Assembly (NCBI GenBank): GCA_049903315.1
Contig: JBNGBT010000015.1
Location: 1-34,803 of the forward strand
Direction: 5' to 3'
DNA: 34,803 nt
Source: Candidatus Cloacimonadota bacterium
GTDB lineage: Bacteria > Cloacimonadota > Cloacimonadia > JGIOTU-2
Numbering within the stretch: position 1 is the first letter of the stretch; each line of letters opens with the position of its first letter. Shown piece after piece: positions 1 to 34,803 of this stretch. The notes beneath the pieces are model-generated. The model did no database searches and was not told the origin of the DNA. It worked only from the letters and a program-made list of their open reading frames with translations. The translations under genes were made by a program, and so were the position numbers.

Positions 1-6
1 TACCAT
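1..6 (-). CDS. Probable start of a divergently transcribed gene truncated by the window edge
   Basis: The minus strand reads AGGAG (19-15), 8 nt, then ATG (6-4), which is ideal SD spacing. Only two codons are visible. Confidence 0.35.
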
Positions 7-125
7 GGCATGTACTCCTTTCTGCAACAACATACTCTTCTCCCAATTTCTGTAAACAACGCTAAGTTTTCTTACAAATTGTGTTATAAATTATTTGATA
101 AAAAACCTGACAAGAATATATTTAT

Positions 126-1133
126 ATGAAACATATAGGTATGAAAAATGATGAATTAAAGATTAGAGTTAAAAGACTGATTAATGAGTACCTTGAGCCT
201 CTTGAAATAAAGAAGCTTGATCTGGATATTATTCCTACCCTAAGATCACAGAAGACAGGGGAGGTGTTTTCATCTCAATATAGAAAAGAGATGCAACGGA
301 TAGGAAGGTATTTTAACAATTTCTCTCTTCTCGGGGAGTTCAGAATGTCCTTTCTCGACATTCTTTATGATTTTCTAGAATCAAGAAGCAGAAAAATCTC
401 CGAAAATACATATTATATCCAGGCTAATGCGCTCAAGGGAGTCATCATGAATCAACCGAAAATCCAACTACAGAATGAGTATTTCAAACAGATATTCGAA
501 ACCGTTGTGAAAGACATATGTTTTGACCAGGACCTGCTTGATAATTGCCAGAATGGAGTTTCCAGGGGTGAACCCAATCCATTGAACGAAAAACAACTGA
601 CGTTGCTTCTTGACGCTGCCAACAAAAGGACGACATTGATCTTGTCCTTTATTCTCATGACCGGTAGCAATATGCAGGAACTCGTCAGACTAACCATGAA
701 GGGGGTGATGCAGCTTTCATACCATGATGCAGTAAGAGTTATGCTTGCCAGGAATAGCAAGAATCAACGATCTGCTGTCATCCCAAGATCCATGCTCTTG
801 ACTATCCTTAATGAATTTCACGGAACCAATCACATGAATCAAATCCCGACTGACAGATTTCTATTTCAGACAAGATCGGGAAATACCCTTATGAAGAATA
901 ACATCTATATGATGATAGAGAACGCAGGGCGAAAGGTCGGTATCGACAAATTGAATGTCGCCGATCTATATGAGACATCAACAATGATCAAACGCATGGG
1001 TGGTTGTTCCGACGGAGTATTAACGCTTTCAGAAAATGTCGACAAAAGTGATCCCAGTGAACGAGAACAGGTAAGATGCTTGTTCGATTGCTTTGCATTT
1101 CTGAATGTATTTTATAATAACCAAAATAATTAA
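126..1133 (+). CDS. Tyrosine recombinase (Xer/integrase)-fold protein, apparently catalytically inactive
   Basis: The C-terminal half follows the integrase catalytic-domain scaffold: LNEKQLTLLLDAA..RTTLILSFILMTG(S-N-M)QELVRL; SKNQRSAVIP; FLFQTRSGNTL; IENAGRKVGIDKL. Box I Arg is Asn, HxxR reads ADLYE, and there is no LGH or recognisable Tyr nucleophile. The start may be ATG 141. Confidence 0.7.
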   Translation: MKHIGMKNDELKIRVKRLINEYLEPLEIKKLDLDIIPTLRSQKTGEVFSSQYRKEMQRIGRYFNNFSLLGEFRMSFLDILYDFLESRSRKISENTYYIQANALKGVIMNQPKIQLQNEYFKQIFETVVKDICFDQDLLDNCQNGVSRGEPNPLNEKQLTLLLDAANKRTTLILSFILMTGSNMQELVRLTMKGVMQLSYHDAVRVMLARNSKNQRSAVIPRSMLLTILNEFHGTNHMNQIPTDRFLFQTRSGNTLMKNNIYMMIENAGRKVGIDKLNVADLYETSTMIKRMGGCSDGVLTLSENVDKSDPSEREQVRCLFDCFAFLNVFYNNQNN

Positions 1134-1150
1134 GAAGAGACAATGTATTT

Positions 1151-1261
1151 ATGATCGAAAATCTTGATGAAAACGATGCCAAGGAGTTACTGGACAGAAT
1201 GACAAGACTAATTCTGTTGTTGGTATCTATCGCAAGTAGAAAGGATGAAGAAGAAAAATGA
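1151..1261 (+). CDS. Small 36-aa ORF (MIENLDENDAKELLDRMTRLILLLVSIASRKDEEEK) directly upstream of the serine recombinase leader
   Basis: Read manually: ATG 1151 to TGA 1259-1261, with purine-rich AAGAAGAGA upstream. It has an amphipathic-helix pattern and is below the ORF-track size cutoff. Confidence 0.5.
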   Translation: MIENLDENDAKELLDRMTRLILLLVSIASRKDEEEK

Positions 1262-1382
1262 CGGGCGTGGCGACAGTTGAATTGCTGATAGTCGCAGAAC
1301 AGTAATTAGACGCCCGAAAACACTCGGTGCCCTGATTATACGGGGCACCGGTGACACGGATCATCGATCATAGATCAGGGAG
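1262..1382 (+). ncRNA. Putative structured cis-regulatory RNA leader of the serine recombinase
   Basis: P1 is CGGGCGT 1262-1268 / ACGCCCG 1310-1316. P2 is GCGAC 1270-1274 / GTCGC 1291-1295. A crossing helix AATTGCTG 1280-1287 / CAGTAATT 1300-1307 has one G-U pair. A second hairpin spans 1321-1353, and CCCTGAT 1330-1336 is complementary to ATCAGGG 1374-1380 at the SD. Confidence 0.5.
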
Positions 1383-1386
1383 TAAA

Positions 1387-2982
1387 ATGCACAGTGTAAC
1401 AAAGACGAAAGCAGTACTCTACGCACGAGTATCATCAAAAGAGCAAATGGATACCGGTTATTCAATCGACGCACAGGTGGACCTCCTCAGAGCTTATGCT
1501 AAGGAGAATTATATCGAGATAGTTCATGAATATGTCGAAGTGGAGTCGGCTAAGACCACAGGACGCGCAGAATTCAACAAGATGATAAAGCTCATAAAGG
1601 AGGAAAAGAGGAGACGCAGAAATAACTACTGCAGAACGATCCTTGTTGAAAAGACAGACCGCTTCTGTAGGAACTTTAGAGATTATTTACTGCTTGATGA
1701 ACTGGATATCGACATTCACTTTGTGAAAGAGGGAACCGTCTACTCGGAACAGAGCAGTCGTTCTACCGACAAGATGATCATGGGTATGAAGGTCTTGATA
1801 GCAAAACATTTTATTGATAATCTGAAGGAGGAGACCATCAAGGGGTTGAACAAGAAGGCTGAACAGGGAAATTATCCCTGCAGGGCTCCATATGGCTATA
1901 TGAACGTCAAAGACGGTAAAAAGAACCACATAGCACCGGATCCTGAAACAGCTCCCATGGTGAAGAAGATATATAATCTTTACGCTTCAGGAAATTACTC
2001 CCTGAAATCCCTTGCTGATAAACTGTATAAAACAGGATTTTTTTACTGCCCTTCAACACCACGGTTCCCGACCTCGGTGCTGCAAAGAATGCTGAACAAT
2101 CCGATCTATTATGGTAAGTTCAGGTTCAAGGAAAAACTCTATGACGGCAATCATAAACCCCTCATTAGCAAAAGAAAATTTCAGCTTGTGAACGAGTATC
2201 TAACAAGTAACGGTAACGGCAAACACAACGACACAAAGGTATACATGCTGTACCGCGGATTGATCCACTGCGGGGACTGCGGATGTTTGCTGACCGGGGA
2301 AAAACATAAAAAGAAGTATATTTATTACCACTGTACCTTTGCCAAAGGAAAGTGTAAGAATCGTGAATATATCAGGAGCGAGGTCATTGATGCGGCAATC
2401 GAGAAGATCATCAGGAAAATATCCTTTGATGATAAAAAGATGAAGTTCATTACCGATGCCCTGAAAGCCGGTATCGACAAAGAGAATAAAGAAAATAAGA
2501 CCATAATGAAGAAAAATAAACAGAGGATTAAAGATCTGAAAAAGGGTCTTGATAAGATTTATATGGACTATCAACTAGCTCGTATTGATAAAGAACGCTA
2601 TGAGCGCATAAGGGATAAATGGGAGGAAGAAATCGACATTTTAGAGGACAATTTGTGGAATTTAAAAGCTCAAAGCGACGGTTTAAGGGTCAAAATGACG
2701 ATTATTCTCAAAATCTGTAAATCCCTTACTGATATATATTTACAAGGTTTGCCATTTGAGAAAAGAGAGGTGCTTCAGATACTGTTCTCGAACTTTTTAT
2801 GGGATAATGGTAAGCTAGTGGCAATCGTACGAAAGCCTTTAGACATGCTGCTTTTAGCAGATTTTGATGACGAAAATTCTCAGGTAAAAATTTGCTCAAA
2901 ATACCCGAAAAAAAAGGGTGGGGTGGATGATGGGACTCGAACCCACAACAACCGGAACCACAATCCGGTGCTCTGCCATTGA
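1387..2982 (+). CDS. Large serine recombinase (resolvase + recombinase + Zn-ribbon/coiled-coil domains)
   Basis: N-terminal YARVSSKEQ catalytic Ser motif, VEKTDRFCRN, APYGY, NPIYYG...GNHKPLIS, Zn ribbon CGDCGC...YYHC...C, then a coiled coil. ATG 1387 has SD AGGGAG; the ORF-track start GTG 1351 lies in a hairpin arm. Confidence 0.95.
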   Translation: MHSVTKTKAVLYARVSSKEQMDTGYSIDAQVDLLRAYAKENYIEIVHEYVEVESAKTTGRAEFNKMIKLIKEEKRRRRNNYCRTILVEKTDRFCRNFRDYLLLDELDIDIHFVKEGTVYSEQSSRSTDKMIMGMKVLIAKHFIDNLKEETIKGLNKKAEQGNYPCRAPYGYMNVKDGKKNHIAPDPETAPMVKKIYNLYASGNYSLKSLADKLYKTGFFYCPSTPRFPTSVLQRMLNNPIYYGKFRFKEKLYDGNHKPLISKRKFQLVNEYLTSNGNGKHNDTKVYMLYRGLIHCGDCGCLLTGEKHKKKYIYYHCTFAKGKCKNREYIRSEVIDAAIEKIIRKISFDDKKMKFITDALKAGIDKENKENKTIMKKNKQRIKDLKKGLDKIYMDYQLARIDKERYERIRDKWEEEIDILEDNLWNLKAQSDGLRVKMTIILKICKSLTDIYLQGLPFEKREVLQILFSNFLWDNGKLVAIVRKPLDMLLLADFDDENSQVKICSKYPKKKGGVDDGTRTHNNRNHNPVLCH

Positions 2983-2994
2983 ACTACATCCACC
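2919..2994 (-). tRNA. tRNA-His (GTG)
   Basis: Reverse complement GGTGGATGTAGTTCAATGGCAGAGCACCGGATTGTGGTTCCGGTTGTTGTGGGTTCGAGTCCCATCATCCACCCCA forms a cloverleaf with the extra G-1, anticodon GTG, a TTCGA T-loop and encoded CCA. Confidence 0.97.
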
Positions 2995-3008: not shown

Positions 3009-3086
3009 TGGTCGGGGTGCCGAGATTCGAACTCGGGACCTCTTGAACCCCATTCAAGCGCGCTAGCCGGGCTGCGCTACACCCCG
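3009..3086 (-). tRNA. tRNA-Pro (GGG)
   Basis: Reverse complement CGGGGTGTAGCGCAGCCCGGCTAGCGCGCTTGAATGGGGTTCAAGAGGTCCCGAGTTCGAATCTCGGCACCCCGACCA. Anticodon stem is CTTGA/TCAAG, loop ATGGGGT, with encoded CCA. Confidence 0.97.
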
Positions 3087-34635: not shown

Positions 34636-34803
34636 TTTTTTTCTTTATATAATTATTTTTTTGATATTTGATTCAGACAAATTTCTTTGTCAACAAAAAA
34701 TGAAATAAAATCAAAATTTAATCATTTTATATGTAAGATTTTCACGCGTTGTTTACACTTTTAGGGAAGAAATATGCTATTAATTTCTCCATTGGTGTTA
34801 ACT

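What the first reader, a model, noticed from the sequence alone, without database searches (positions are those of the whole stretch)
126..2994. Candidate new integration module: dead tyrosine recombinase + mini-ORF + structured RNA leader + large serine recombinase at tRNA-His
Seen in sequence: four co-oriented, tightly spaced parts lead into the tRNA-His 3' end. They are an intact but catalytically degenerate tyrosine-recombinase gene, a 36-aa ORF, a compact structured leader and an intact LSR. Established: tRNA 3' ends are classically tyrosine-integrase targets, and LSRs usually need a directionality factor. Inference: the dead recombinase and/or the mini-ORF may act as repressor, architectural factor or directionality factor for the LSR, with an added RNA-level switch. 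I do not recognise this arrangement as a described system, but I cannot search.
Basis: partly seen in the sequence, partly recalled or inferred. Interest (0 to 1): 0.8.

Follow-up and report, generated by a model that had tools for sequence, protein, structure and literature searches.

The report
Dead recombinase beside tRNA-targeting serine integrase
A mobile element in a marine bacterium carries a conserved four-part cassette in which a catalytically dead recombinase and a tiny protein sit in front of an intact DNA-inserting enzyme and probably control when it is made and in which direction it works.

Summary
The four parts are real and travel together. Dead tyrosine recombinase (YR), 33-36-aa ORF, a 9-6-9 palindrome exactly 37 nt before the start codon, and a large serine recombinase (LSR) recur in the same order in relatives down to 48-53% protein identity, while host genes are 88-92% alike. 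The YR has 0 of 6 catalytic residues, belongs to a 14-member dead group and is under purifying selection. The LSR gene reads through antisense tRNA-His, so its attachment site lies inside its own gene; this is known (Dehalococcoides DsiB) and this scan found it before on other DNA. Only the palindrome of the "RNA leader" is conserved; a DNA operator fits at least as well as an RNA switch. A complex prediction weakly places the mini-protein on the LSR (0.53, best control 0.02). Best reading: a compact control cassette, with the dead YR as repressor (like SPbeta MrpR/SroF, separately derived) and the mini-protein as directionality factor. Both functions are inferred. Most related LSRs lack the dead YR, and no second att end was found. 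Host: a Ca. Celaenobacter relative (Cloacimonadota). New variant of a known kind.

The parts
1..76 (-). Left end of a multicopy ~1-kb insertion sequence (IS481-like by its TGT...ACA ends; family label recalled, not tested). Not part of the module; it breaks the contig.
   Evidence: Identical 76-80 bp at 7 contig ends
77..83 (.). 7-bp target duplication of the IS; pairs this contig end with the start of contig C44, so C44 (reversed) lies upstream of the window
   Evidence: five other left/right IS ends pair the same way
107..140 (+). Putative promoter of the YR gene: TGACA 28-29 nt before the ATG in window, L024 and L025, suggesting a leaderless mRNA; homology between the loci starts here
   Evidence: inference from sequence
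141..1133 (+). Catalytically dead tyrosine recombinase, 330 aa, core-binding plus catalytic-type domain, pI 8.8
1151..1261 (+). Conserved acidic mini-ORF (36 aa; 33 aa in L024/L025, 48-52% identical); candidate directionality factor of the LSR
1262..1316 (+). Lineage-specific stem of the leader; not conserved in sequence (17 of 63 positions of 1262-1324 match L024)
1326..1349 (.). Conserved 9-6-9 palindrome (GGTGCCCTG-N6-CRGGGCACC), 37 nt before the LSR start codon; candidate operator
1387..2982 (+). Intact large serine recombinase, 531 aa; its last ~21 codons are antisense tRNA-His
2918..2924 (.). Inferred crossover core at the tRNA-His CCA end (attL-type junction inside the LSR gene)
   Evidence: L024 and L025 are 94% identical up to this point and unrelated beyond it
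2919..2993 (-). tRNA-His(GTG), intact, the only one ARAGORN finds in the assembly; target of the element
3009..3086 (-). tRNA-Pro(GGG), host gene upstream of tRNA-His

Best explanation
This is the integration and control cassette of a mobile element that inserts at the last bases of tRNA-His in Ca. Celaenobacter-like Cloacimonadota. Shown: the LSR is intact; its gene spans the junction, so the integrated copy ends in tRNA-antisense residues; the YR is dead yet conserved; YR, mini-ORF, palindrome and LSR are inherited as one ~2.8-kb block with changing flanks. Inferred: the dead YR is a DNA-binding repressor that binds the 9-6-9 palindrome in front of the LSR gene, and the mini-protein binds the LSR as a directionality factor. 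Inferred logic: on entry into a new cell the LSR is made before YR and mini-protein build up, so the element integrates; in the resident state YR holds the LSR off while the mini-protein is present, so lifting repression gives excision. Odds by step: tRNA-His integrase with att inside its gene 0.9; YR a selected non-catalytic DNA binder 0.8; the four parts functionally linked 0.7; mini-protein binds the LSR 0.45; palindrome is the YR's operator 0.4.
For: Same order and spacing in L023-L025 at 48% (YR) and 53% (LSR) identity while flanking host proteins are 88-92% alike. Single contigs bridge YR end to LSR start in runs X14 and X15 (~97%), and mini-ORF to LSR in an ~83-89% relative. In a fourth lineage the N-terminal extension of gene call P0305 back-translates to the palindrome (12 of 12 fixed arm positions versus 23 of 38 elsewhere) with the same 37-nt gap. 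L024 and L025 share only the block from YR promoter to att. 14 YRs with 0-2 of 6 catalytic residues fall on one side of a split (SH-aLRT 99, quick tree) from 17 others, 16 of which have 6 of 6. dN/dS: YR 0.16 (window/L024) and 0.50 (L024/L025); mini-ORF 0.24 and 0.21. The YR model (pLDDT 83.8) keeps both DNA-clamping domains (XerA Z 17.4, rmsd 12.1, 251 aligned; SroF Z 10.4, rmsd 7.5, 238 aligned). The second dead YR in L024 is also followed by a 9-6-9 palindrome, 6 of 9 alike. Complex of LSR(135-510) + YR + mini-protein: score 0.53, best of 3 controls 0.02, and 0.02 when the LSR was replaced and the YR kept; runs agree in at least 72% of contacts, partner pLDDT at least 57. The tool calls this weak: its mark was reached by 116 of 157 solved and 2 of 215 mismatched pairs, but at 0.60 or under by only 18 of the 157 and by both mismatches, and this three-chain job is unlike the calibration. 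Precedents: MrpR/SroF is a dead YR that represses a prophage using an LSR (SprA) and a small factor (SprB) (passages); SprB's C-terminal helix (residues 37-58) is essential (passages).
Against: No binding, expression or recombination data. The dead YR is absent upstream of 46 of 46 other LSR loci examined (1.5-3 kb of flank for most), so the family does not need it. Co-occurrence rests on about four related lineages in one host group; neighbours can stay linked without interacting. No consensus promoter was found in the window's leader. The palindrome is also a strong RNA hairpin (z -3.5 to -4.4), 27 unrelated viral stretches carry the same pattern without YR or LSR, and the palindrome after the second YR follows an A-run like a reverse-strand terminator. 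Five active relatives of the YR have no such palindrome after their stop codon. The complex score may reflect memory of solved LSR-RDF structures, and no interface was given. The mini-ORF is not significantly similar to small ORFs beside other LSRs (1 of 26 pair tests passed; profile rank 125 of 13,046, E 79). dS is near saturation for window/L024 and counts are small for L024/L025. The dead group has long branches and may be drawn together by shared loss. No far att end was found, so this copy may be stuck.
Confidence: 0.45

Rival explanations
1. Architectural or targeting factor: the dead YR does not repress transcription but binds DNA near the att sites and helps the LSR find or synapse at the tRNA-His end, or sets direction, as an accessory subunit.
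For: YR keeps both DNA-binding domains. The palindrome half-site matches 9 of 10 bases at 2966-2975 inside tRNA-His, about 45 bp from the crossover; 125 of 20,000 shuffles of the tRNA do as well, and 2 of 48 tRNA/tmRNA genes of the genome reach 9 of 10. Two-recombinase modules exist (DsiA/DsiB, CcrA/CcrB; passages).
Against: The half-site match was noticed after the fact and overlaps a common tRNA motif; the palindrome also resembles the tRNA-Pro T arm. Related LSRs target tRNA ends without this YR. The conserved palindrome lies 1.5 kb from att, at a promoter-like position. YR-LSR binding was not tested.
Confidence: 0.15
2. RNA-level control: the leader is a structured RNA (attenuator, processing site or translation switch) tuned by translation of the mini-ORF, and the YR acts elsewhere.
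For: Leader z -4.05 in the window, -3.25 and -3.52 in L024 and L025. The window's two arm departures from a perfect palindrome-plus-flank are G-U compatible, as is the change at 1325 in strains X14/X15. L025 can form a 5' stem at the same place from unrelated sequence (z -1.8).
Against: No Rfam match. The 5' stem is absent in L024 (z +1.0) and replaced in the ~83% relative. The conserved stem shows no two-sided compensatory change across 48-53% protein divergence, which fits sequence read-out better than pure structure. No U-tract follows it, and it ends 37 nt before the start codon, clear of the ribosome site.
Confidence: 0.2
3. Passive linkage: the dead YR and mini-ORF belong to the element's replication or lifestyle control (or are relics of a YR-type ancestor) and merely sit next to the LSR; they do not act on it.
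For: L024 holds a larger element with a replication-initiator-like gene, Gp157, AAA/VWA genes and a second dead YR. Active relatives of the YR are also followed by 36-40-aa ORFs (5 of 5). An unrelated active YR abuts a tRNA-Asn LSR in a Legionella adelaidensis record, so YR-LSR adjacency can arise more than once.
Against: The block kept between L024, L025 and the window is precisely YR promoter to att; the replication genes are absent from L025's upstream flank and from this genome. The small ORFs after active YRs are not significantly similar to the mini-ORF (0 of 10 pair tests). The complex score depends on the LSR.
Confidence: 0.2

Closest known systems
Bacillus phage SPbeta: MrpR/SroF repressor, SprA serine integrase, SprB directionality factor (PMC10516654; 10.1101/2025.11.27.690993; PMC11722253; passages read, plus the abstract of the second)
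   Same: A tyrosine-recombinase fold without catalytic residues, an LSR, and a small helical factor in one element. The YR model matches SroF (Z 10.4) and MrpR (Z 9.3).
   Different: Here the parts form one 2.8-kb cassette at a tRNA end. The YR is closer in fold to XerA (Z 17.4) and derives from an active family found in its own phylum; a profile of it finds 32 solved sequences and MrpR/SroF is not among them. SroF reads a long site as a monomer, whereas the candidate site here is a dyad. The passages read do not show MrpR repressing sprA.
Dehalococcoides ssrA genomic islands with DsiB/DsiA (McMurdie 2011, PMC3146451; passages read)
   Same: LSR next to attL whose 3' end overlaps the stable-RNA gene antisense, so the C-terminus depends on integration state; tandem islands; an accessory recombinase-like gene upstream.
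   Different: Target is tRNA-His, not ssrA; no 20-bp direct repeat found here; the accessory gene is a dead tyrosine recombinase, not a small serine recombinase; no ParB/Mom module.
Widespread tRNA-3'-end LSRs with att inside the gene
   Same: The window's LSR is a member: convergent on the tRNA, tail encoded by antisense tRNA, alternative tail in a tRNA-free copy (L025).
   Different: The dead YR and the palindrome are confined to this lineage among the loci examined. The L025 tail lacks the degron-like end seen in 12 of 16 non-tRNA tails of viral relatives.
Tycheposons (10.1101/2020.12.28.424599; passages read)
   Same: Marine, tRNA-targeting integrative elements with swappable cargo; a minority use an LSR.
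   Different: 910 of 937 use an active tyrosine integrase; no dead-YR cassette appears in the passages read.

Membership tests
Large serine integrase | Resolvase + Recombinase + Zn-ribbon domains with catalytic serine motif | tested here: met
   Pfam E 3e-23, 4e-15, 5e-12; YARVSS, TDRF.R and cysteines present
Large serine integrase | attL and attR flank the element | tested here: inconclusive
   attL-type junction located by comparison; no attR found in C44 or L024; the assembly has 71 contigs
Large serine integrase | Site-specific recombination activity | not testable with these tools
   Needs an assay; no excision joint among the contigs of 4 runs, which drop rare forms
tRNA-3'-end LSRs with att inside the gene (DsiB-like) | LSR frame runs antisense into the RNA gene; tail changes with context | tested here: met
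   4 of 4 closest homologs end in the same tRNA-His-antisense peptide; L025 copy has another tail from the junction on
Active tyrosine recombinase | R-K-H-R-H/W-Y catalytic set | tested here: not met
   0 of 6 in the window protein and in 5 of 5 close homologs
Active tyrosine recombinase | Core-binding plus catalytic-domain fold | tested here: met
   Model pLDDT 83.8; top matches XerA, Cre, XerH, lambda Int
MrpR/SroF repressor family | Integrase fold without catalytic residues | tested here: met
MrpR/SroF repressor family | Sequence kinship with MrpR/SroF | tested here: inconclusive
   Not among 32 solved sequences hit by the profile at E 0.01; 8-15% identity in the structural alignments. Works-like claim only.
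MrpR/SroF repressor family | Operator binding and repression | not testable with these tools
   Candidate operator 1326-1349 is inferred
LSR directionality factor (RDF) | Binds the LSR's second DNA-binding domain / coiled-coil junction | tested here: inconclusive
   Weak pass, 0.53 versus best control 0.02; no interface given
LSR directionality factor (RDF) | Switches on attL x attR and blocks attP x attB | not testable with these tools
   Needs an assay
Known structured RNA family (riboswitch, attenuator) | Rfam match or covariation-supported structure | tested here: not met
   No Rfam hit over the leader at E up to 5; no two-sided compensatory change in 3 aligned leaders

The most novel reading that the evidence does not exclude
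An independently evolved, self-contained switch for a tRNA-targeting serine integrase: an old clade of dead tyrosine recombinases serves as repressor at a dyad operator, a 33-36-residue single-helix protein is the directionality factor (shorter than SprB, and perhaps the first member identified of the small helical ORFs that abut many tRNA-end LSRs), and integration itself rewrites the integrase tail as a third layer of control.
Probability: 0.25. Interest if true: 0.82.

Novelty: new variant of a known kind. Interest (0 to 1): 0.6.

Why it matters
A large family of serine integrases inserts at tRNA 3' ends, and no directionality factor or regulator for them turned up in my searches. This cassette offers named, small, testable candidates for both, in 2.8 kb. 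If the YR is a repressor, it is a second, separate case of a tyrosine recombinase turned regulator after MrpR/SroF, which the SroF preprint calls the first phage repressor with that fold. A ~35-residue directionality factor and an LSR that restores a tRNA end would also be useful genome-engineering parts.

Tried and rejected
Second att end: no copy of the tRNA 3' end or of the L025 tail in the assembly; none between the last toxin-antitoxin gene and the conserved host gene in C44 or at the matching place in L024. Dyad symmetry around candidate crossovers: at most 10 of 26 matches, uninformative. Genome-contig scan with the LSR: 1 unrelated locus of 98 stretches. Viral scan with the YR alignment: 0 of 131. 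Viral palindrome scan: 27 stretches, none with YR or LSR. Fused YR forms of 589-2000 aa: none among 7,998 candidates, weak evidence. Mini-ORF: no Pfam, NCBIfam, PHROG or Atlas hit. Its kinship to small ORFs before other LSRs: 13 seeds that I picked by eye for resemblance; 1 of 26 pair tests passed (L052, 0 of 1,000 shuffles), profile rank 125 of 13,046: unproven. Kinship to ORFs after active YRs: 0 of 10. L025 tail as a packed domain: two helices at pLDDT 60-71 after a linker under 50, not shown to pack. P0305 looked like an excised-form LSR by length but is an N-terminally extended gene call. The rest of the L025 contig could not be read, so whether a tRNA-His lies further on is open. The careful tree did not finish; the quick tree is cited. 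Supplements of the papers were not read and could hold relevant cases.
Full report
OBSERVATION. The four parts are in the sequence as described. The YR most likely starts at 141, not 126. The LSR frame (1387-2982) continues antisense through tRNA-His (2919-2993). The window is the whole of contig C6. Its first 76 bases are the end of an insertion sequence present at many contig ends; a 7-bp target duplication pairs it with contig C44, whose first 13.7 kb are mostly toxin-antitoxin, ATPase and nucleotidyltransferase genes around one secreted GLUG-repeat gene. A 90% cluster of the window's phosphate transporter contains a protein named Ca. Celaenobacter antarcticus; placing that genus in Cloacimonadota is from recall.

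THE PARTS TRAVEL TOGETHER. The YR has 4 close homologs among 1,089 candidates (94, 77, 65, 48%), and the LSR has 4 close ones (96, 78, 73, 53%) among 1,288 hits. A metagenome scan confirmed 3 loci of 479 stretches. All three have YR, a 33-aa mini-ORF, the palindrome and the LSR in the same order (L023 is identical to part of L024). L024 sits at tRNA-His/tRNA-Pro with the same downstream host genes; those proteins are 88 and 92% identical to the window's while YR and LSR are 48 and 53%, so the cassette is older than the host split and arrived separately. L025 is 93.8% identical to L024 only from the YR promoter to the att point, with unrelated flanks. Of 20 runs listed I laid 4: X6 may be the source of this DNA; X14 and X15 hold ~97% strains with single contigs from YR end to LSR start; X14 also holds an ~83-89% relative with mini-ORF and LSR on one contig and bases 1281-1395 replaced; X18 gave only short pieces. 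A further lineage is inferred: YR P0003 and LSR P0305 both have a longest contig of 3,166 bases, and P0305's extended N-terminus back-translates to the palindrome with the same 37-nt gap to the start codon. The cassette is patchy: YR not found in 20 other genomes of the family, LSR body not found in 40 relatives. G007, G009 and G010 keep about 55 bp after tRNA-His that resemble the LSR's end (73 and 77% to L024 for two of them), which look like scars.

THE LSR. It is intact. Four of four closest homologs end in the same tRNA-His-antisense peptide. This layout is general: 91 of 121 homologs end in tRNA-type peptides by a loose signature, and 8 of 9 other LSR loci found in 232 genomes of the phylum abut a tRNA or tmRNA. 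McMurdie 2011 describes the same for DsiB at ssrA and suggests the gene may be complete only in the circle or in tandem arrays (passages). L025 has no tRNA and a different 51-residue tail starting at the junction; the protein is on 4 contigs, so it is probably an attP-type or tandem junction (inference). The crossover falls in the last bases of the tRNA, which explains why no long duplicate of the tRNA end exists. Among 27 closed viral LSR frames (of 32 loci), 12 of 16 non-tRNA tails end in a small-aliphatic-Ala type motif versus 1 of 11 tRNA tails and 7 of 1,571 long ORFs of this genome; reading these as degrons is recall, several loci are near-copies, and L025 lacks such an end. No far att end was found, and this strain has G at 2916 and 2918 where X14 and X15 have A, so this copy may be immobile.

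THE DEAD YR. A profile search of 1.84 billion representatives gave 1,506 hits. I aligned 31 proteins: the window's, 5 close homologs and 25 hits chosen for covering the N-terminal domain. Fourteen have 0-2 of the 6 catalytic residues and lie on one side of a branch with SH-aLRT 99; of the other 17, 16 have all six (quick tree, midpoint root, long branches). Active relatives occur in 7 of 231 other genomes of the phylum at E 1e-12, and none of those 8 loci shows an LSR. Selection is purifying: dN/dS 0.16 against L024 (dS near saturation) and 0.50 between L024 and L025. The model has the two-domain clamp of Xer/Cre proteins, and residues kept across the dead group cluster in the core-binding domain and at positions also kept in the active ones. 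MrpR/SroF shows that this fold can become a repressor (passages), but no sequence link to it was seen. Contexts of the other dead-group proteins are unknown, except P0125, the second dead YR of L024, which is not next to an LSR.

THE LEADER. It folds well in all three lineages, but window-to-L024 identity is 17 of 63 in the 5' part, 19 of 26 in the palindrome and 17 of 36 after it. The palindrome is unique in this genome, has 9-bp arms around a 6-bp spacer (like tyrosine-recombinase core sites, from established knowledge) and keeps a fixed 37-nt distance to the start codon. Against an operator: no consensus promoter in the window's leader, the pattern occurs in 27 unrelated viral stretches, and the changes seen are G-U tolerant. 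DNA operator and RNA hairpin are not separated by these data; I put them at about 0.4 and 0.3.

THE MINI-ORF. It is 48-52% identical across lineages, dN/dS 0.21-0.24 on few sites, acidic (pI 4.5), with no family. Small helical ORFs abut many other tRNA-end LSRs, but kinship is unproven. One three-chain prediction scored it 0.53 against a best control of 0.02, and 0.02 with the LSR replaced and the YR kept; the runs agree in at least 72% of contacts and its pLDDT is at least 57. The tool rates this weak: 116 of 157 solved and 2 of 215 mismatched pairs reach the mark, only 18 of the 157 at 0.60 or under along with both mismatches; the job is unlike the calibration and may echo solved LSR-RDF complexes. 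Published AlphaFold pull-downs found true RDFs and also false ones (passages of PMC12286644).

AGAINST A GENERAL SYSTEM. None of 46 other LSR loci has a YR of this family upstream (2 hits, both downstream of the LSR). The cassette is an add-on of one lineage.

NOVELTY. Ten literature searches (listings, with passages of eight papers read) showed each ingredient separately but no dead-YR/mini-ORF/LSR cassette; the library lacks most subscription journals and no supplements were read. PMC10083194 does not contain the word tRNA in its main text. Earlier notes of this scan describe the tail-swapping LSR family on other genomes but none of those shown mentions a dead YR, and a sequence look-up found nothing. 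Verdict: real, conserved and undescribed as a unit as far as searched; mechanism inferred; new variant of a known kind; interest 0.6.

Noticed in passing
window 1-83 and 34727-34803: Both ends of this contig are ends of the same multicopy IS; its 6-7-bp target duplications pair contig ends (C6-C44, C9-C6, C22-C13, C4-C33, C4-C8, C71-C7) and could scaffold the assembly.
   Followed up: partly
L022 1-13700 (G000:C44): Dense cluster of toxin-antitoxin and nucleotidyltransferase genes, several broken (DUF6577 split, AAA/DUF4143, AbiEi, BrnT/BrnA, HipA/HipB, DUF6036).
   Followed up: partly
L024 914-9213: Larger element upstream of the cassette: metallopeptidase/VWA, MoxR-type AAA, Gp157, a replication-initiator-like gene and a second dead YR (27% identical) followed by its own 9-6-9 palindrome.
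   Followed up: partly
L027-L030, L034: Active YRs of this phylum are each followed by a terminator-like hairpin and a conserved 36-40-aa hydrophobic ORF with an acidic end; function unknown.
   Followed up: partly
L038-L041, L043, L051, L052, L057, L060-L062, L069, L072: Short helical ORFs or helical C-termini directly before tRNA-end LSRs; candidate directionality factors worth a dedicated survey.
   Followed up: partly
L045, L047, L050, L055-L057, L062, L065, L067, L069, L070, L073: Non-tRNA LSR tails ending in LVA, AA, CA or AV, like protease tags; L053 and L054 carry the same LSR at tRNA-Leu and at tmRNA.
   Followed up: partly
L076 1431-3997: An apparently active, unrelated YR lies 27 nt before a tRNA-Asn-linked LSR in a Legionella adelaidensis record.
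   Followed up: no
L003, L004 downstream of tRNA-His; L025 12012-14986: G010 and G007 have sugar-nucleotide genes next to the LSR-like scar, of the kinds that follow the LSR in L025; such elements may carry polysaccharide genes.
   Followed up: no
L037/L042: Two LSR genes in tandem before tmRNA in G136.
   Followed up: no
window 2966-2975: 9-of-10 match to the palindrome half-site inside tRNA-His; 125 of 20,000 shuffles do as well.
   Followed up: partly
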